DNA of 64,000 nucleotides from Mustelus asterias (lineage: Eukaryota). A model generated the notes under the pieces. That model made no database searches. It was not told the DNA's origin and saw only the letters and a program-made list of their open reading frames with translations. The stretch is taken from positions 44,640,001 through 44,704,000 of the forward strand of contig NC_135823.1 of the NCBI RefSeq assembly GCF_964213995.1, read 5' to 3'. This document shows positions 2,401 through 59,809 of this stretch, one piece after another (position 1 is the stretch's first letter; each line of letters starts with the position of its first letter). Made by a program: the position numbers and the translations under genes.

Positions 2401-3788
2401 CAACTAGAAAATAAAACATTCAAGGGTAGGGGTGCTTTTTCTTTCTGTGCCTGAGGGAGTGGTGCCACCGTTGTTCTTTGTTGTCCAATGGCAGTCCAGA
2501 CAGCAGATAACACTCACTCGTTCAGCTGAGACGTCCAAGCGGAAACTGGATTATTATCTGAAAAGGATGTGCAGGGCTACAGGAAAAAGTCAGGGGAGTG
2601 GATTTCTCCAGCAGAGCTGTAACATTCTATGTTTCTATTTAATGATTCTGCCCTGAAATAACTACTCCTTGAACCTTACTAGGTACAGATGAGAAGGATC
2701 ATTCAGCCCAATTATCCCAGGGTCTACTTCAGAAGGTCTCTTTTGCAATTACTCCATGATAGAAATATGAGAGACTTTGCTTCAGTTTATGAAATGCTTG
2801 CTGGACTGAACGACTACATTCCACAGAAATTATACATTTATCATTCCATACTGGAAAATAAATGGTACAATTAATGTTCTTAAATGTAAAATGATCTCAC
2901 AACTGACTGATTATCATGCACCATTTTTACATATCACCTGTTTTGGACTGCAACACATTATATACATACATGCACATAAATCTGAAATTACCTGTGCTGC
3001 TATCCAGTTCCACGATCAGATTCTTATTTGTGAACAGTCTCCTCTGGTATGATGACTTGCATGGCGACTGGCATAAAATCCTTGTTGGTTTACAGTGTAA
3101 ACTTCTAATACCATAAAGTGACAAGTGTCCTGAAACACACAAAAAAAATCACTGCTACTAAATGCTCAGGGAACGGGGCATCTGATCCCAAATGCTTCCC
3201 ATTCATTGCAAATTAACTTAGGTAACATCAAAATGTTAACGTTGAAATTTGAGTGCAGTAGCAAGCCCAAAGACAGCTTCCAAACAATAACAAATGACAG
3301 ACTATGATGATAGGTAGACCATAGAACCATTCCCAATCATAAACCAAATAGTAATTCCCACAGAAAAAAACTGCCAATGTTAAATATAGGATGAAACCAG
3401 CAAAACAAAAAGTCCCAATAACTATCAGTGACAAGTCCCAGTAACAAATCCTTGGTAGAAAACTCTAATAATAAATTCTAAAGCATCTAAACTCTACTTG
3501 AAACAGAGCAGAGAGGATAAATAGAACAGTAGGATGGTTTTAAAATAGATGGTCGAGAGAAGAGCAAGAAATGAGGTGTACCCAATAGCAAGCGTACTGA
3601 AAGTCGGTACTTTGCAGAAGAATATGAAGTGAAGAACAATCAAAAGGAGTAAGAACTTAAGAGTGGGCTGCACCAAGGAGTGGAAACAATTGTCTTATAA
3701 TACAAACACAAGGGACACTCAGAATAATCTAGTGATCTGATGTTCCAAAGTGACAGAATTACATTACCCTTGTGCTTAAATAAGTACA

Positions 3789-4216
3789 GTAAGAAGTCTC
3801 ACAACACCAGGTTAAAATCCAACAGGTTTATTTGGCAGCACAAGCTTTCAGAGTCTCGCTCCTTCATCAGGTGAGCGAGGAGTTCTGTTCACAAACAGGT
3901 CATATATAGACACAAACTCAATTTACAAGATAATGGTTGAAATGCGAGTCTTTACAAGTAATCAAGTCTTAAAGGTACAGACAATGTGAGTGGAGAGAGG
4001 GTTAAGCACAGATTAAAAGAGATGTGTATTGTCTCCAGCCAGGACAGTTAGAGAGATTTTGCAAGCCCAGGCAAGTCATGGGGGTTACAGATAGTGTGAC
4101 ATGAACTCAAGATCCCGGTTGAAGCTTGTGCTGCCAAATAAACCTGTTAGACTTTAACCTGGTGTTGTGAGACTTCTTACTGTGCTTACCCCAGTCCAAC
4201 GCCGGCATCTCCACAT
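3789..4216 (-). mobile_element. Non-autonomous Penelope-like element with inverted termini and 14-bp TSD
   Basis: ~60 bp inverted ends (GTAAGAAGTCTCACAACACCAGG...CCTGGTGTTGTGAGACTTCTTAC), tail CCAGTCCAACGCCGGCATCTCCACAT, TSD CTTAAATAAGTACA at 3775-3788 and 4217-4230. Confidence 0.8.
3839..3873 (-). ncRNA. Minimal type I hammerhead ribozyme motif
   Basis: Minus strand reads CAC-CTGATGA-A-GGAG-CGAGA-CTCT-GAA-AGCT-T-GTG: core, stem II, palindromic stem III, stem I CAC/GTG. Confidence 0.7.
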
Positions 4217-11751: not shown

Positions 11752-11889
11752 ATGGGTTTCAGCAAAAGGTTTCACTGGATTTTTGTCACCTGGATTTGTT
11801 GCAACCTGCATGTCAGCGGCTCGCTGCCTTCTGAGAGTGCGAAGCAAAGGAAACCTTTCTTTGAGCGGCTCAGACGGCTGGAGGAGCAG
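11752..11889 (+). CDS. PTX4: Pentraxin-4 coding exon 1 (signal peptide and start of coiled coil)
   Basis: MGFSKRFHWIFVTWICC...RKPFFERLRRLEEQ, the PTX4 hallmark, followed by phase-0 donor CAG|GTGGGT. Confidence 0.93.
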
Positions 11890-11974
11890 GTGGGTCCAGG
11901 AAAACACACCTGGCGGGATTTATGTCACATTATCAGTAACCCCCACAGCTTTCCTCCTGGTCTTGCAGAATCTC

Positions 11975-12245
11975 ACTAGCTGTTCTGTCTGGAGACAATA
12001 CACATCTCTTTAACCTGTGTTTAATGTTCCCTCCACCCACATTGTCTGTACCTTTAAGACCTGGCTGGCTGTAGGGATTCGCATTCTAATTAGTATTCTG
12101 TAACTTGATTTCTGTGTCTCTGTGCACTGTTGGAGAACAGATTTTCACTCCATCTGACGAAGGGGCAGCGCTCCGAAAGCTTATGGTATTTGCTACCAAA
12201 TAAACCTGTTGGACTTTAACCTGGTGTTGTGAGACTTCTTACTGC
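11975..12245 (+). mobile_element. Penelope-like element 3' fragment in PTX4 intron 1
   Basis: Same family as 3789-4216; ends AATAAACCTGTTGGACTTTAACCTGGTGTTGTGAGACTTCTTACTG. Confidence 0.8.
12150..12186 (+). ncRNA. Intact minimal type I hammerhead ribozyme motif
   Basis: CCAT-CTGACGA-A-GGGGC-AGC-GCTCC-GAA-AGCT-T-ATGG; all core residues and stems I and II present. Confidence 0.78.
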
Positions 12246-12261
12246 AGCCTTTGGTGCAGCC

Positions 12262-12890
12262 CCAGCATTTTCTCTTTTGGTTTCAGAGTTTGCTTTTGTC
12301 CAGTGTTTAACTCACTGCCACTTCCCTTCCAGAGCTTTGACAAAAAGGGTCATCTGGACTCGAAACGTCAGCTCTTTTCTCTCCTTACAGATGTTGCCAG
12401 ACCTGCTGAGATTTTCCAGCATTTTCCCTTTTGGTTGGGTTGCAGCTTTTGTTGGGGCTGGCTTTGTATAGAGTGCGCCTGTTGTATAGAGTTCCTCTTG
12501 GTGGGGGGAGGGAGGGAGGATTGCTAGCCTGCCCTGTCTGTCCACAATGCTAAATCTTTTTAGATCCTTTCTCATCCAGACTTGGCTCTATTCTCCCTCC
12601 ACAGAGGCTGTCAGACTGGCTGAGATTCCCCAGCATTTTCTGTTTTTGCTCCAGATTCCAGCATCCGCAGTAATTCTGCTTTCATCTTGGTATGTTGAAC
12701 ATATTAGTTGATGGGGCTCTTCCCCGGTTAGTTGCTTGAGTGAGATAGAAACGAAGCTTTGACAAAGGGTCATCTGGACTCGAAACGTCAGCTCTTTTCT
12801 CTCCTTACAGATGCTGCCAGATGCTGAGATTTTCCAGCATTTTCTCTTTTGGTTTCAGATTCCAGCATCCGCAGTAATTTGCTTTTATTA
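12262..12890 (+). mobile_element. Cluster of second-family Penelope-like termini (about 3 partial tandem copies) with degenerate hammerheads
   Basis: AGCT-TTGACAA-AGGGTCATCTGGACTC-GAAACGTC-AGCT at 12333 and 12755, followed by the repeated CAGATG(C/T)TGCCAGA...TTTTCCAGCATTTT. Confidence 0.72.
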
Positions 12891-13044
12891 TGATAGAAAT
12901 GAAAATGTCTTTCATCTGCCTAAGGGGGGGTTTCAACTAGTTCTGATCAATTGGTCCAAGGCAATATTTGCTAAAATGCATTTAAGTGTGGTGTTTGGTA
13001 AAGCTTCCTTTTTAATGTGTATCTCTCCCGTTTCATTGCCACAG

Positions 13045-13636
13045 TTTCGGCGATTTCAAGATCTTAGCTTGACCCGGTTACAGATCATTTCGGAAAACTT
13101 CAATGTTTCTTCCAATGTAGACCTTCGGCTCCAGTCGCTAACCGACCAGTTCAATAACATCAACGCCACGGCGAACAGGTTCCACACTGCAGCAGAAAGT
13201 GACATCGGGAGCTTAAAATCCTGGGTGAAGAAACTGCAGAAGAAAGCCAAGAAAATCGACCTGAAGATGTCAACCTTGGAGAAGGTCCTCAACGAGCGAA
13301 GCAAGCAGGTGTCGAGGGACAAGAAAGAGCAGGATTTGCTGGTGACCAACCTGACCAGGAAGGTGGAGGAGCAGAGGGAGGCAATCGGTGCCCTGGCCGC
13401 CGGCAGGATCAAGCTACAGAAGGAAATGGAGGGCATTCGCGATGAGGTTAAGGGCCAGGGCGTTAAAGTAGCCAGTTTTGAGGAGCAGATGACAAGTGCC
13501 TTGCAGAACGACGCCCTCTCGGTGAAGCCAAGCCCCATGCAGTCAGCAGCAGCCACAGCACCGCTGGGGCACCGGGCAAAATCCTTCAACCAGGCACCCT
13601 CCACCAAGCAGCCACTCTCCAAAAAAGAAGGGTCAA
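13045..13636 (+). CDS. PTX4: Pentraxin-4 coding exon 2 (coiled coil and linker)
   Basis: Acceptor CACAG|TTT, FRRFQDLSLTRLQIISENFNVS; phase-1 donor TCAA|GTATGT joins exon 3 to give GS-I-CNV. Confidence 0.9.
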
Positions 13637-19361: not shown

Positions 19362-19999
19362 TCTGCAATGTGAATTCAGTGATGCACTTTCCCAATTCTT
19401 CCACTGAGAACTATGCAACCTTCGGCAAAGGCTTTTCAACCGGGCTATTTGAAATGACCATCTGCTCCTGGCTCAGAACCAAATCAAACTATTTGGGAAC
19501 TATGCTGTCATATGCAACAGAGGATAATGACAACAAATTGGTACTGCACGGCCGAAATACAAGCAAACAAACCACCATCCATTTTGTAATTGGAGATCCG
19601 GCATTCAGGGAACTTCCTGTGATACCACTCTTAGATGGCCGGTGGCACCATATTTGCATAATTTGGTCTTCCTTCGAGGGTAAGTACTGGTACTATATAG
19701 ACAGGCGTCTGGCAGCAGCTGGTTCCAAATTCCAAAAAGGCTATGAGATTCCAGCTGGTGGAACACTTATAGTAGGCCAGGAACAGGATAATGTGGGAGG
19801 AGGCTTTGACTATACTGAATCCTTTGTAGGGAGTTTGGCTGGATTCACAATTTGGAACCGGGCTTTGGTTCCTGGGGAAATCTCGAGCATCACTACAGGA
19901 AAGTCATTACCTGGAGGCAGAGTTTTAACTTTCAATGATGTTTCCACACTTAATGGTGCAGTTCGACATCAGAATTGTACATGCCTAGAGCATTGTTAG
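19362..19999 (+). CDS. PTX4: Pentraxin-4 coding exon 3 (pentraxin domain and stop)
   Basis: Acceptor TCTTCTTGCAG|TC; ICSWLR, LSYATEDNDNKL, WHHICIIWSS signature, LIVGQEQD..GGGFD..ESFVG; exons total 1368 nt = 455 aa plus stop. Confidence 0.96.
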
Positions 20000-32279: not shown

Positions 32280-32600
32280 GGGGAGATGTTTCGAGTTGCA
32301 GCGCAATGGGCGGAGTGAGCGCACTGAAGCCCGGGGCTCGCCGTAGAGGGGGGGAGGGGATCACGGGACCGGGTCTCTTGGCAACAAACCCGTCGGCACC
32401 GGCAAGATGGCGAACGTGGTCAACAAAGTTTCTTGGTCCAGCAAGGATGGCGAGGCGAGGCCCGGGGAGGATACCCCGTTACTGAACGGCTCGCCCAGCG
32501 CCTCCCAGAGCCCGGCGCTGCCCCGCCAGGTAAGCCAGCGGCCGCCAGGTGTGCCCATCCCCTCCCCTCTGTCCCCCAGGCCGCTCAGTGTTCAGACCCA
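32280..32600 (+). promoter_or_regulatory. CpG island/promoter of CLCN7
   Basis: High GC and CpG; GC-box GGGCGG at ~32308; RFX-like GTCTCTTGGCAAC at 32373-32385; CAAGATGGCG start context. Confidence 0.75.
32407..32529 (+). CDS. CLCN7: H+/Cl- exchange transporter 7, exon 1
   Basis: MANVVNKVSWSSKDGEARPGEDTPLLNG...RQ versus human MANVSKKVSWSGRD...TPLLNG...RQ; donor CAG|GTAAGC. Confidence 0.95.
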
Positions 32601-33779
32601 ACACGCCCAGCTTCTTACCTCCTGGCTGGCTGCTGTTTGTGGAACCACTCACAGGCTCAATCACTCTGCTGTTAGCAGTACAAACACAAAACAAAAGATC
32701 TGGAGATCTCTCAGCCCCGGGCTGCCTGATTAGCTCACATTTAAAACCATCTTTCTGCCCTCCCAACCCCACAAACAAGAGGAGAATTTCGACAATGGGC
32801 TTCAAACTGTGATGGATTAAAAAGTTGGGTATTGTTGGGTTAGTGGATTCCCCCCCTCCCCCCTCCAATCATTCAGATGTTTGAAATTAGAAAGTCGCTT
32901 CAGGTTTTTTTTATAAAAAACATTTCATGCTTGTGTTCTGATTCATGACCTGTAATTTAAAAAGGGCCAGTGTACCGCTGTAGTTGCTCTAATCATTCCA
33001 TTCTCTACAAGGCTGTGATTTAATCTCTGGGTTCTGATAGTATTTGTAAACAATCAATGGTCACATAAATTTAGATTAGATTACATGATGTGATAACCGC
33101 GAATGGTATTTGTGCTCAGATTCCAACTCTGAAATCATCTTGAAAATGTTGATTGTCTTGCTCTTCTTACATATCATTAACAATCATATGGATGTTGTGG
33201 ACCTGTTGGTGTTGGAAGCCCCAACTAGAGCATTGAGAATATTTTCTCACACAACTTGCTCAGTGTGGCAGTCTGTCTTTGGGTAGGGCACCCTAAACTT
33301 GCTTTCACCAACACTAGTCACACACATTTAATTGACAATTCTTCAGCAAGTCCTCAGATTGCTTGGCATTGTATCATAGGTGTCTGCTTGTTTGCAGCTT
33401 CAGTTGTGTAACTTCTAGACTGTTTCAGAACTGTACAGATGAAGTGTTTTTCTTTCATAGAAGGAAGGGGCATTTGGGCAAATTCTAGATTCTGGGGCTG
33501 ATGACAACAGGAATATATTTGATACGGAATTGTAAATGTCACTGTTGCAACCGAACTTTATTTCATGAACTATTTGGTCTATCATGCTGATGCTGGCTAT
33601 TTGATAACATTTGTGTTTTGTCTTATATCCCAGCCTGTGCATGCAGCTCAGCAACATTATTAGCTATGCTGTGAGCATTGATGTACATATAACTTGGTAC
33701 AATCCTTCAACAACTTTCCTTAATCTGGTCCTTGTAATTTTTAGGATGCTTCCAATTTTACTGCTGTTTATAACCTGTC

Positions 33780-37627: not shown

Positions 37628-37970
37628 GGTAAGAAGTTTAACAACACCAGGTTAAAGTCCAACAGGTTTATTTGGTAGCAAAAGTCACAAGCTTTTGGAG
37701 CCTTAAGCTCCTTCAGGTGAGTAGGAATTCTGTTCACAAACGGCATATAAAGACACAAACTCAATTTACAGAATAATGGTTGGAATGTGAATACTTACAG
37801 TTAATCAAGTCTTAAAGGTACAAACAATGTGAGTGAGTTCCATTTGAAGAAGGAGCTTAAGGCTCTGAAAGCTCGTGGCTTTTGCTACCAAATAAACCTG
37901 TTGGCCTTTAACCTGGTGTTGTTAAACTTCTTACTGTGTTTACCCCAGTCCAACGCCGTCATCTCCACAT
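37628..37970. mobile_element. Non-autonomous Penelope-like element with inverted termini and 14-bp TSD
   Basis: TSD CTTCAGTGAAGTGT at 37614-37627 and 37971-37984; inverted ends; degenerate hammerhead at 37840-37878. Confidence 0.82.
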
Positions 37971-46385: not shown

Positions 46386-46684
46386 CATGATGTGGAGATG
46401 CCGGCGTTGGACTGGGGTAAACACAGTAAGAGTTTTAACAACACCAGGTTAAAGTCCAACAGGTTTATTTGGTGGCAAATGCCTTTAGCTTTCGGAGCGC
46501 TGCTCCTGTGGACAGGACAGCCAGTGAGATTCAGTATTCTATAACTTGATTTTGTGTCTCTGTGCCCTGTTTGAGAGCAGATTTCCACTCTATCTGATGA
46601 AGAAGCAGTGCTCCGAAAGCTAATGGCATTTGCTACCAAACAAACCCGTTGGACTTTAATCTGGTGTTGTTAAAACTCTTACTA
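46386..46684. mobile_element. Non-autonomous Penelope-like element with inverted termini and 9-bp TSD
   Basis: TSD TTCTATAGC at 46377-46385 and 46685-46693; tail GATGTGGAGATGCCGGCGTTGGACTGG. Confidence 0.82.
46590..46626 (+). ncRNA. Minimal hammerhead ribozyme motif (one stem II mismatch)
   Basis: CTAT-CTGATGA-A-GAAGC-AGT-GCTCC-GAA-AGCT-A-ATGG. Confidence 0.65.
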
Positions 46685-56590: not shown

Positions 56591-56798
56591 AGGTGAGGGC
56601 AGGAATGGAGTGAGGTGGAGGATGAATGTGTGGCTGAAGGACTGGTGCAGGGGGCAGGGATTCAGGTTCCTGGACCATTGGGACCTCTTTAGGGGCAGGG
56701 GTGATCTGTATACAAAAAACGGGTGGAACTTGAATCACACGGGGACCAATATCCTGGCCGGTAGGTTGGCTAAGGCTACTGGGGAGAATTTAAACTAG
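56591..56798 (+). pseudogene. CR1 ORF1 C-terminal fragment (SGNH/GDSL esterase-like)
   Basis: MNVWLKDWCRGQGFRFLDHWDLFRGRGDLYTKNGWNLNHTGTNILAGRL matches the vertebrate CR1 ORF1 esterase end. Confidence 0.85.
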
Positions 56799-56803
56799 AT
56801 AGG

Positions 56804-59800
56804 TTGGGGGGAGGGGAGCTAGAAGAGTTGACTAGGATCAAGGAACTAATTGATGGGGGGGAGGATGCAGGGGTAAGGGGAATTACAAAATTAATGGTAG
56901 AGGAGAGGGTGCAAATGAATGAAGGCGGTAATTTAGATAAGGGAGTAGAGGGAGACGGTGTTCGCGACTCATCAAAGCGGGTTCAGATAAAAGCTGGAAT
57001 AAGGACACTTTGCCTGAATGCACGAAGCATTCGGAACAAGGTGAATGAGTTGATGGTGCAAATCAGCACAAGTGGGTACGATCTAGTGGCCATTACAGAA
57101 ACGTGGCTGAAAGGTGACCAGGACTGGGAGATGAATATCCAGGGGTATCAGGCGTTTAGGAAGAATAGACAGGAAGGAAAAGGTGGTGGGGTCGCGCTAT
57201 TAATAAGAGATAATATCAGGGTAGTACTGAGGGATGACATAGGCTCTGAGGAACAAAACGTGGAATCATTATGGGTAGAGATGAGGAATAGTAGAGGGAG
57301 AAAGACACTAGTAGGTGTGGTATATAGGCCCCCAAATAATAATGTTGAGGTAGGGAGGGCTGTAAACAAGCAGATAAGGGATGCGTGTAAAAACGGAACG
57401 GCAATAATCATGGGGGACTTCAACATGCACATTGACTGGCAGACTCAAGTCGGTAAGGGTGGAATGGAGGAAGAGTTCTTAGAATGCTGTCGGGATAGTT
57501 TCCTTGAACAGCATGTTACGGAACCGACGAGGGAACGAGCTATTTTGGATCTGGTATTGTGTAACGAGGTAGGTAGAATTAAGGATCTTATTGTGAAGGA
57601 CCCTCTTGGGTCTAGTGACCACAATATGGTCGAATTTCTGATTCAGATGGAAGAGGAGAAAGTTTGGTCTCAAACCAGTGTCCTCTGTTTGAACAGAGGG
57701 AAATATGATAGGATGAGGGATGAATTGGCTAAGGTAGACTGGGAGAGCAGGCTGGCAGGTAGGATAGCTGAGGAACAGTGGAGGATTTTTAAGGAGATCC
57801 TTTTCAGTTCTCAGCAAAAGTATATTCCAGCAAAAAACAAGGATTGTAAGAAAAGGGAGAACCAGCCGTGGATAACGAAGGAAATAAAGGAGAGTATTAA
57901 AATAAAAACAGCTGCGTACAGAGTGGCCAAAAATAGTGGAGAAACAAGTGATTGGGAAAAATTTAAGAAACAACAAAGAGAGACTAAGAAAGCGATAAAG
58001 AAAGGAAGGATAGACTATGAAGCTAGGCTAGCAATTAATATAAAAAATGATAGTAAAAGTTTTTATAAATATATAAAAAGGAATAGAGTGGCTAGAGTGA
58101 ATGTTGGACCCTTGGAGGACGAGAGGGGGGAGTTAATAGTGGGAAATGAGGATATGGCTGAGTCTTTAAATACGTTTTTTGTGTCGGTCTTCACGGTGGA
58201 GGACACAAATAGTTTGCCAAATATTAACGATAGAGGGTTGGCAGCAGGAGAAATACTTAATACGATTAATGTTACCAGAGAGGCAGTGCTGGGTAGACTA
58301 ATGGGACTGAAGGTGGACAAGTCCCCGGGTCCGGATGGAATGCATCCCAGGGTATTGAAAGAAATGTCAGAGGTAATAGTGGATGCGTTAGTGATTATTT
58401 ATCAAAACTCGTTGCATTCTGGGGTAGTGCCGGTTGATTGGAAAACGGCTAATGTTACGCCGCTGTTTAAAAAAGGAAGGAGACAAAAGGTGGGTAACTA
58501 TAGGCCGGTCAGCTTAACGTCTGTAGTAGGGAAAATGCTGGAATCCATTATTAAAGAGGAGATAGCAGGGCATCTGGATAGAAATGGTTCGATCAATCAG
58601 ACGCAGCATGGATTCATGAGGGGAAAGTCGTGCTTGACGAACATGTTGGATTTTTATGAAGATGTGACGAGGGCGGTTGATGGAGGAGAACCGGTGGATG
58701 CGGTGTTTTTGGATTTCCAAAAGGCGTTTGATAAGGTGCCCCATAAAAGGCTGCTGAAGAAGATTAGGGCACACGGAGTTGGGGGTAGTGTGTTAAAGTG
58801 GATTGGGGACTGGCTATCCGACAGGAAGCAAAGAGTCGGAATAAATGGGTGTTTTTCCGGTTGGAGGAAGGTAACTAGTGGCGTGCCGCAGGGATCGGTA
58901 CTCGGGCCGCAACTGTTTACCATTTATATAGATGATCTGGAGGAGGGGACGGAGTGTAGGGTAACGAAGTTTGCAGACGACACAAAGATAAGTGGAAAAG
59001 TGAATCGTGTGGAGGACGGAGAAGATCTGCAGAGAGATTTGGACAGGCTGAGTGAGTGGGCGAGGATATGGCAAATGGAGTATAACGTTGATAAATGCGA
59101 GGTTATACACTTTGGAGGAAATAATAACAAATGGGATTACTATCTCAATGGAAACAAATTAAAACATGCTACCGTGCAAAGGGACCTGGGGGTCCTTGTG
59201 CATGAGACGCAAAAGCCCAGTCTGCAGGTACAACAGGTGATCAAGAAGGCAAATGGGATGTTGGCCTATATTGCGAGGGGGATAGAATATAAAAGCAGGG
59301 ATGTCTTGATGCACCTGTACAGGGCATTGGTGAGGCCGCAGCTGGAATACTGTGTGCAGTATTGGTCCCCTTATATGAGGAAGGATATATTGGCATTGGA
59401 GGGAGTGCAGAGAAGGTTCACCAGGTTGATACCGGAGATGAGGGGTTTGGATTATGAGGAGAGGCTGAGGAGATTGGGTTTGTACTTGTTGGAGTTTAGA
59501 AGGATGAGGGGGGATCTTATGGAGACTTATAAGATAATGCGGGGGCTGGATAGGGTGGAGGCGGAGAGATTCTTTCCACTTAGTAAGGAAGTTAAAACTA
59601 GAGGACACAGCCTCAAAATAAAGGGGGGTCGGTTTAAGACAGAGTTGAGGAGGAACTTCTTCTCCCAGAGGGTGGTGAATCTCTGGAATTCTCTGCCCAC
59701 TGAGGTGGTGGAGGCTACCTCGCTGAATATGTTTAAAGCGCGGATGGATGGATTCCTGAGCGGTAAGGGAATTAAGGGTTATGGGGATCAGGCGGGTAAG

Positions 59801-59809
59801 TGGTACTGA
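56804..59809 (+). CDS. CR1 ORF2: APE endonuclease plus reverse transcriptase (true start uncertain; first ATG ~56894)
   Basis: EN motifs LNARSI, ITETWL, GDFN, SDH; RT motifs KSPGPDG, YRPVSL, QHGF, LDFQKAFD, GVPQGSVLGP, FADD; no stop codons. Confidence 0.96.
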   Translation: MGGGELEELTRIKELIDGGEDAGVRGITKLMVEERVQMNEGGNLDKGVEGDGVRDSSKRVQIKAGIRTLCLNARSIRNKVNELMVQISTSGYDLVAITETWLKGDQDWEMNIQGYQAFRKNRQEGKGGGVALLIRDNIRVVLRDDIGSEEQNVESLWVEMRNSRGRKTLVGVVYRPPNNNVEVGRAVNKQIRDACKNGTAIIMGDFNMHIDWQTQVGKGGMEEEFLECCRDSFLEQHVTEPTRERAILDLVLCNEVGRIKDLIVKDPLGSSDHNMVEFLIQMEEEKVWSQTSVLCLNRGKYDRMRDELAKVDWESRLAGRIAEEQWRIFKEILFSSQQKYIPAKNKDCKKRENQPWITKEIKESIKIKTAAYRVAKNSGETSDWEKFKKQQRETKKAIKKGRIDYEARLAINIKNDSKSFYKYIKRNRVARVNVGPLEDERGELIVGNEDMAESLNTFFVSVFTVEDTNSLPNINDRGLAAGEILNTINVTREAVLGRLMGLKVDKSPGPDGMHPRVLKEMSEVIVDALVIIYQNSLHSGVVPVDWKTANVTPLFKKGRRQKVGNYRPVSLTSVVGKMLESIIKEEIAGHLDRNGSINQTQHGFMRGKSCLTNMLDFYEDVTRAVDGGEPVDAVFLDFQKAFDKVPHKRLLKKIRAHGVGGSVLKWIGDWLSDRKQRVGINGCFSGWRKVTSGVPQGSVLGPQLFTIYIDDLEEGTECRVTKFADDTKISGKVNRVEDGEDLQRDLDRLSEWARIWQMEYNVDKCEVIHFGGNNNKWDYYLNGNKLKHATVQRDLGVLVHETQKPSLQVQQVIKKANGMLAYIARGIEYKSRDVLMHLYRALVRPQLEYCVQYWSPYMRKDILALEGVQRRFTRLIPEMRGLDYEERLRRLGLYLLEFRRMRGDLMETYKIMRGLDRVEAERFFPLSKEVKTRGHSLKIKGGRFKTELRRNFFSQRVVNLWNSLPTEVVEATSLNMFKARMDGFLSGKGIKGYGDQAGKWY

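What the first reader, a model, noticed from the sequence alone, without database searches (positions are those of the whole stretch)
12150..12186. Intact sense-strand hammerhead ribozyme in PTX4 intron 1
Seen: CCAT/ATGG stem I, CUGACGA core, extra A, 5-bp stem II, GAA, palindromic AGCU in place of stem III, and a predicted cleavage site after U12182. It lies ~260 nt downstream of the exon 1 donor on the transcribed strand. Known: minimal Penelope-type hammerheads cleave best as dimers through the palindrome. Inference: it could cut PTX4 pre-mRNA, alone or paired with another copy.
Basis: partly seen in the sequence, partly recalled or inferred. Interest (0 to 1): 0.7.

Follow-up and report, generated by a model that had tools for sequence, protein, structure and literature searches.

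The report
Penelope hammerhead cluster in shark intron
This is a real tiny hammerhead-ribozyme motif of a known kind, left in a gene's first intron by one of tens of thousands of copies of a jumping gene, and it is likely too slow and partnerless to cut the host transcript, although two more intact hammerheads of a second family sit in the same short intron and its sister copies often begin exactly where it is predicted to cut.

Summary
Observation confirmed base by base. The motif ends a 329-bp, 5'-truncated copy (11916-12244) of a Penelope-like retroelement with RT and GIY-YIG domains. It has 10,354 near-identical intact sisters; about 25 intact hammerheads occur per Mb, so one in an intron is ordinary. 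The copy is young (7-9 differences of 329 from the nearest copies), which explains its intactness. Cutting of the pentraxin (likely PTX4) pre-mRNA is unlikely: it has no helix III alone and no same-family partner in the gene, and a transcript contig shows clean exon 1-2 splicing. (1) Copies of this subfamily start at the predicted cut site 380 times versus 44-130 at four neighbouring positions. This likely records cleavage of the element's own RNA; the scan found this before on other DNA of this genome. (2) The same 1,155-nt intron holds two more intact sense hammerheads of a second family with a swapped U3-A8 core. They could pair with each other, though this is predicted to be uphill. New member of a known kind.

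The parts
11752..11889 (+). Coding exon 1 of a long pentraxin gene (likely PTX4; name recalled), signal-peptide-like
   Evidence: Translation; GT donor at 11890; joined to exon 2 in contigs of runs X1 and X22
11890..13044 (+). Intron 1 (1,155 nt, GT..AG), holding five Penelope-like fragments, all sense
   Evidence: Joint skipping 1155 nt, GT..AG, in an X22 contig of depth 82; fragments mapped
11916..12244 (+). 5'-truncated copy of Penelope-like family A: last 7 codons and stop of the RT-GIY-YIG ORF, then the pseudo-LTR, without the ~37-nt tail; no target-site duplication found
12150..12186 (+). The flagged minimal type I hammerhead (C3-G8 core, AGCU palindrome, CUU triplet)
12182..12183 (+). 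Predicted cleavage site; the position at which sister copies most often begin among the five positions tested
12199..12204 (+). AATAAA inside the pseudo-LTR, the only one in the intron, followed by GU-rich sequence; use untested
12260..12299 (+). Short 3'-end fragment of Penelope-like family B (edges approximate)
   Evidence: 26 of 26 bases identical to family B at 12262-12287; flanks read
12331..12436 (+). Family-B copy B1 with minimal hammerhead 12331-12375: U3-A8 core, 3 extra A, ACGU palindrome, GUC triplet, predicted cut after C12369
12570..12690 (+). Older, decayed family-B-related copy lacking the second half of the hammerhead core (edges approximate)
   Evidence: 82-83% identity at 12585-12685; left edge read
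12755..12888 (+). Family-B copy B2 with minimal hammerhead 12755-12793: U3-A8 core, 1 extra A, ACGU, GUC, predicted cut after C12789; own 11-bp target-site duplication with 1 mismatch (12744-12754 and 12892-12902)
13045..13636 (+). Exon 2 of the pentraxin gene
19362..19999 (+). Exon 3, pentraxin domain (start read from the acceptor sequence, not from RNA)

Best explanation
The motif is the minimal hammerhead in the terminal repeat of a young, 5'-truncated Penelope-like retroelement copy lying in intron 1 of a pentraxin gene; it likely cuts only the element's own RNA, as a dimer or with help from the element's protein, and this lone copy is likely an inert passenger that splicing removes. Shown: the repeat identity, the parent's RT and GIY-YIG ORF, the copy numbers, covarying stems, a peak of copy starts at the cut site, and a spliced contig. 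Inferred: in the parent arrangement (repeat-ORF-repeat) two hammerheads swap stem I strands and pair their palindromes to form helix III; cleavage after H17 gives a new 5' end; reverse transcription runs off that end and leaves copies that start at the cut. Inferred for this copy: no compatible partner in the pre-mRNA, a competing fold with downstream flank, and only 862 nt to the next exon, so splicing wins.
For: 10,354 exact matches to the 35-letter family pattern. 15 descriptor-positive hammerheads in 599,800 sampled bases, so about 1.4% of 1,155-nt stretches carry a sense one. Full repeat-ORF-repeat unit in L085 with RVT_1 E 8.7e-9; GIY-YIG E 3.9e-4 in L064, below Pfam's cut-off; CX4CxxC linker. 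8 of 12 pairs show two-sided change, 0 of 500 shuffles reach it (23 of the 25 rows were pre-selected for pairing). Nearest copies differ at 7-9 of 329 sites, so zero changes in 37 nt has P 0.40. Copy starts: 44 at -3, 123 at -1, 380 at the cut, 130 at +1, 89 at +3; 19 of 20 inspected cut-site rows are true 5' junctions. Exon 1-2 joint in X22 and in X1, a relative. Palindrome duplex with B2 is 0.0 kcal/mol. Stem probabilities in the whole intron 0.00-0.01. PMC4209133: single motif showed no cleavage, dimers low. PMC11167929: Anolis PLE hammerhead cut only with protein, and no RNA-seq ends were found. PMC10274809, citing Fong 2009: slow intronic ribozymes did not affect splicing.
Against: The fold prediction is not robust: stems I/II are 0.9 just after synthesis and 0.65-0.72 with a 100-nt span limit. 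The spliced contig shows that some transcripts survive, not what share; X22 is a different sample from DNA run X19, its type is not on record, and the insertion was not shown in its allele. The cut-site peak shows the family is probably not dead, and a trans partner is plausible with more than 10,000 copies. The peak has rivals: 26 of the first 100 cut-site rows are fold-backs pivoting on the self-complementary AT (hand count), only four control positions were tested, and counts are not normalised for copies per 24-mer. Three intact sense hammerheads in one short intron is rare (Poisson 5e-7 per tile and strand; 0 of 960 sampled tile-strands had 3 or more same-strand fragments), and I did not test why.
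Confidence: 0.82

Rival explanations
1. The flagged hammerhead cuts a share of the pre-mRNA by pairing in trans with other family-A RNA, or when bound by the element's protein, so the gene is dampened where the element is active.
For: Intact core and stems; transient folding 0.9 just after synthesis; family cut-site peak; many copies with long open ORFs; protein-assisted cleavage in PMC11167929.
Against: Active A-A dimer is 3.3 kcal/mol above two monomers before any entropy of association; spliced contig at depth 82; the copy lacks the tail and ORF start where the Anolis protein is thought to bind (PMC11167929); low dimer activity in PMC4209133.
Confidence: 0.07
2. The intron is cut, but by the two family-B hammerheads (12331-12375 and 12755-12793) forming a cis dimer across 379 nt; the best-formed core would be B2's, cutting after C12369.
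For: Same ACGU palindrome; swapped stems I pair fully (6 and 4 bp) in a nested fold; GUC triplets; stems predicted at 0.69-0.99 at 37 C; U3-A8 is the amplified master state, 77 of the first 100 listed of 2,971 matches, against 17 C3-G8, 5 C3.A8 and 1 U3.G8 (hand count; one swap event, not independent copies).
Against: Cis dimer predicted 14.7 kcal/mol above the ensemble in context (11.8-13.7 for a single core) and 5.7 above monomers as bare motifs, without tertiary contacts modelled. B1 carries 2 more extra A than usual. No clear cut-site peak for family B: 58 versus 42 at a control, 34 of the 58 are fold-backs sharing AGCT, and 4 of 12 inspected loci were merely mutated whole copies. B2 is finished only 251 nt before exon 2. 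Spliced contig.
Confidence: 0.07
3. The insertion matters to the gene through its AATAAA or through the family-B polypyrimidine-CAG acceptors rather than through catalysis.
For: Only AATAAA of the intron at 12199; acceptor-like words ending 12390, 12604 and 12810.
Against: No such joints among those shown (15 of 61 joints displayed, 15 of 176); U1 bound 310 nt upstream is expected to suppress the signal (recalled knowledge).
Confidence: 0.04

Closest known systems
Minimal type I hammerheads (min-HHR) in pLTRs of metazoan Penelope-like elements (Cervera and De la Pena 2014, PMC4209133; parts 1-2 of 4 read, supplements not seen)
   Same: Stem I of 4 bp, extra nucleotide between 9 and 10.1, G10.1-C11.1, palindromic 15.1-16.1 region with no helix III, position in the pLTR, thousands of dispersed single copies; U3-A8 variant described there for Schistosoma Cercyon elements.
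   Different: Stem II is 5 bp rather than 7-8; host is a cartilaginous fish by my recall of its repeats (not named by any search), a group not mentioned in the parts read; here a whole vertebrate subfamily has U3-A8.
Neptune/Nematis-type C-terminal EN+ Penelope-like elements (Craig et al. 2021, PMC8557442; passages)
   Same: Single ORF with RT then GIY-YIG, CX2-5CxxC linker, partial tandems, inverted 5'-truncated arms, 30-40 bp optional tail, hammerhead in pLTR.
   Different: No tree was built, so Neptune versus Nematis is not resolved; very high copy number.
PAc, Poseidon element of Anolis carolinensis (Frangieh et al. 2024, PMC11167929; passages)
   Same: Two 3' ends separated by the tail; minimal hammerhead near the ORF start.
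   Different: There the ORF starts inside stem II and no RNA-seq ends were found at the cut; here the ATG lies about 100 nt after the cut and genomic copies pile up at the cut.
CPEB3 intronic HDV-like ribozyme (PMC10274809; passages) and amniote intronic hammerheads (PMC6765202; passages)
   Same: Self-cleaving motif on the sense strand of an intron.
   Different: CPEB3 is described there as highly conserved and self-sufficient, with a half-life of 2-3 min against 9.9 kb to the next exon; this is a young repeat copy that needs a partner and lies 862 nt from the next exon.

Membership tests
PLE minimal hammerhead (min-HHR) | Core C3 U G A N G8 A9 ... G12 A A A15.1 ... U16.1 H17 | tested here: met
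PLE minimal hammerhead (min-HHR) | Helices I and II supported by covariation; extra nucleotide before 10.1; G10.1-C11.1 | tested here: met
   (rows mostly pre-selected for pairing)
PLE minimal hammerhead (min-HHR) | Palindromic segment in place of helix III | tested here: met
   AGCU in family A, ACGU in family B
PLE minimal hammerhead (min-HHR) | Lies in the pLTR of a Penelope-like element | tested here: met
PLE minimal hammerhead (min-HHR) | Self-cleavage as dimer or with protein | not testable with these tools
   Only the indirect peak of copy starts
EN+ Penelope-like element, Neptune/Nematis type | One ORF with RT and C-terminal GIY-YIG | tested here: met
   RVT_1 above cut-off; GIY-YIG hit below cut-off in L064 and absent in two other copies, but the two-part motif is readable at residue 790
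EN+ Penelope-like element, Neptune/Nematis type | CX2-5CxxC linker between RT and EN | tested here: met
   CX4CxxC at residue 753 of the L085 ORF
EN+ Penelope-like element, Neptune/Nematis type | Partial tandems, inverted truncated arms, 30-40 bp tail | tested here: met
EN+ Penelope-like element, Neptune/Nematis type | RT phylogeny places it in the clade | not tested
   No reference sequences were fetched
Rfam hammerhead families (canonical) | Match to a covariance model | tested here: not met
Non-LTR retrozyme | Head-to-tail tandem units, each with a complete hammerhead, no ORF | tested here: not met
   No tandem array at 11.9-13.0 kb; family A has an ORF-bearing parent; B2 has its own target-site duplication. 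Criterion from bioRxiv 10.64898/2026.07.22.740005 (passages)
Domesticated regulatory intronic ribozyme (CPEB3 type) | Conserved at the orthologous position, with sequence constraint | tested here: inconclusive
   No excess conservation against sister copies (P 0.40); no relative's genome held

The most novel reading that the evidence does not exclude
Penelope hammerheads in this fish really cut in vivo, and this intron, which has collected three intact sense copies, is a switch: a B1-B2 cis dimer or a protein-assisted family-A hammerhead breaks the pentraxin pre-mRNA whenever the element's protein is present. Tens of thousands of intronic copies would then couple host gene output to retroelement activity.
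Probability: 0.08. Interest if true: 0.7.

Novelty: new member of a known kind. Interest (0 to 1): 0.24.

Why it matters
As a single copy it is ordinary. The family-level peak of copy starts at the cut site bears on an open question, whether Penelope minimal hammerheads cleave in vivo (left open in PMC4209133, PMC8557442 and PMC11167929); the scan had already reported this signal elsewhere in the genome. The intron offers a ready test piece: one partnerless hammerhead and one natural compatible pair in 650 nt of the same transcript.

Tried and rejected
Rfam: no hammerhead match. No RNA holder listed by the run search; all laid runs were contigs, which cannot show RNA ends, so the lack of end pile-ups is no evidence. 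Apparent preference for CAG after the 3' end in L001-L030: rejected as selection by the query; in less biased loci 1 of 19 tail-less ends had it, and that one is the window copy. Cis dimer of the flagged motif with B1 or B2: palindromes and stems I do not match. Tandem retrozyme: no array. Target-site duplication search: none for A, B0, B1 or the old B copy; found for B2 only. Cut-site footprint for family B: inconclusive. Protein atlas gave no result for the gene name. Lunse et al. 2016 on dimer cleavage is not held; I know it only through the review PMC6765202 (passages). Literature searches: hammerhead + Penelope + shark gave 4 papers, none on this by listing; Penelope + hammerhead + cleavage site + truncated + pLTR gave 1 review; U3-A8/C3-G8 gave 2; exon tethering gave 7 listings, none read. 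Sense/antisense bias in introns was not tested, for lack of gene annotation. Supplements of PMC4209133 were not opened and could list cartilaginous-fish motifs; bioRxiv supplements are closed.

Full report
What is there. The 37 bases at 12150-12186 read as described: a 4-bp stem I, the CUGACGA core, one extra A, a 5-bp stem II with one G-U pair, GAA, the palindrome AGCU and U12182 as H17. A descriptor for minimal hammerheads finds 3 hits in the 64 kb and 0 in 300 shuffled windows. Rfam has no matching family. The host gene is a three-exon long pentraxin; the label PTX4 is recalled and is only weakly backed by a CLCN7-like neighbour. Intron 1 is 11890-13044.

What it belongs to. The motif lies in a 329-bp repeat copy, 11916-12244, that begins 26 nt after the donor. 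Sister copies extend upstream into a reading frame, so this copy is 5'-truncated within the last codons of an ORF. Locus L085 holds a whole repeat-ORF-repeat unit with an RT domain, a CX4CxxC linker and a GIY-YIG-type motif (Pfam GIY-YIG E 3.9e-4 in L064, under the cut-off). Many insertions have inverted arms and an optional tail of about 37 nt. These are the features that PMC8557442 (passages) gives for Neptune/Nematis-type Penelope-like elements; I built no tree. The genome has 10,354 exact matches to the 35-letter subfamily pattern. In 60 stretches taken at round coordinates (599,800 bases, 20 of them from the window's contig) there are 15 intact hammerheads, about 25 per Mb, or roughly 90,000 by extrapolation. 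About 1.4% of intron-sized stretches carry one on a given strand.

Is its intactness special? No. Among the seven loci compared, the nearest copies differ at 7-9 of 329 sites, none inside the motif, and zero changes in 37 nt has probability 0.40. The structure is kept at family level: in 25 aligned variants 8 of 12 pairs change on both sides and no shuffle of 500 matches this, with the caveat that 23 rows were chosen by a pairing descriptor and the rows are related.

Does the family's ribozyme work? Earlier notes of this scan claimed that copies start at the cut site, so I tested it for this subfamily. I counted genome-wide 24-mers preceded by four bases that all mismatch the element: 44 at -3, 123 at -1, 380 at the cut, 130 at +1 and 89 at +3. 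Of 20 cut-site rows inspected, 19 are true 5' junctions, two pairs being arms of one insertion each. The simplest reading is reverse transcription running off a cleaved RNA; this is inferred. Limits: 26 of the first 100 rows are fold-backs pivoting on the AT after the cut, the controls also hold indel-damaged whole copies, only four control positions were tested, and counts are not normalised.

Would this copy cut the pre-mRNA? Probably not. It has no helix III as a monomer, and PMC4209133 (parts 1-2 read) found no cleavage of a single motif and low cleavage of dimers. PMC11167929 (passages) found cleavage only with the element's protein and no matching RNA-seq ends. No same-family partner lies between exon 1 and exon 3, and the other hammerheads in the intron do not match it. 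An A-A trans dimer is 3.3 kcal/mol above two monomers. Folding in context is uncertain: 0.9 just after synthesis, then 0.00-0.01 with longer-range pairing or about 0.65-0.7 with a 100-nt span. Only 862 nt remain to exon 2; at the mammalian rate quoted in PMC10274809 that is about 15 s, and that paper cites work showing that slow intronic ribozymes do not affect splicing. A 1,550-nt contig of depth 82 in run X22 joins exon 1 to exon 2 across GT..AG with 1 difference in 669 bases, and a relative's contig does the same. X22 carries the same organism code as DNA run X19 but is another sample and its type is not on record. Contigs cannot show RNA ends or the share cleaved.

The other two descriptor hits are in the same intron and also sense: B1 (12331-12375) and B2 (12755-12793). 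They belong to a second Penelope-like family, whose upstream DNA in L115 and L101 encodes an endonuclease region 35-37% identical to family A's. Their core is UUGACAA, a U3-A8 swap of the C3-G8 pair, with an ACGU palindrome and GUC triplet. The exact 39-mer occurs 1,573 times; among the first 100 of 2,971 relaxed matches 77 are U3-A8, 17 C3-G8 and 6 mismatched, so the swap was amplified from a master copy. The same swap is known from Schistosoma (PMC4209133). B1 and B2 could form a nested cis dimer with fully paired swapped stems, but it is predicted 12-15 kcal/mol uphill in context, B1 has two surplus A, and family B shows no clear cut-site peak.

The cluster. Five fragments of the two families lie in 1,155 nt, all sense, and B2 has its own target-site duplication. 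None of 960 sampled tile-strands held three or more. Under a uniform model about three stretches with three intact same-strand hammerheads would be expected genome-wide, so this is a local hot spot or a rare extreme.

Verdict. A real minimal hammerhead of a described class in a young Penelope-like fragment, most likely a passenger in this intron (0.82). New member of a known kind; interest 0.24. The family footprint and the natural B1-B2 pair are the parts worth a bench test.

Noticed in passing
window 12331-12375 and 12755-12793: Two further intact sense hammerheads with a U3-A8 core and matching palindromes in the same intron; possible cis dimer.
   Followed up: yes
window 11916-12888: Five Penelope-like fragments in one 1,155-nt first intron, all in the same orientation; 0 of 960 sampled tile-strands had 3 or more. 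Cause untested.
   Followed up: partly
L031-L050, L067; window 12333 and 12755: Many family-B copies begin at the first base of stem I, and longer copies have a TATA-like word about 25-30 bases upstream, suggesting the hammerhead forms the start of the element's RNA.
   Followed up: partly
window 12372-12390, 12591-12604, 12792-12810: Family-B repeats carry a polypyrimidine tract plus CAG right after the predicted cut site, a splice-acceptor-like word, in sense within the intron.
   Followed up: no
window 56774-59806 (+): Uninterrupted 1,011-codon frame with endonuclease and reverse transcriptase domains, a LINE-type ORF2.
   Followed up: partly
window 37629-37968, 46392-46683, 3786-4214: Head-to-head family-A pairs with the tail on one arm, typical fold-back insertions; their hammerheads are decayed.
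   Followed up: partly
window 32347-32730 (+): Short frame resembling the N-terminus of CLC-7 (E 0.014-0.038), likely the first exon of the neighbouring gene.
   Followed up: partly
L083:1272-4052: A family-A ORF preceded by a family-B-like hammerhead start fused to the family-A 3' end and tail, a possible chimeric promoter.
   Followed up: no
window 13399: One G-to-A difference in the X22 transcript contig against the window and DNA run X19; likely an allele, as the samples differ.
   Followed up: no
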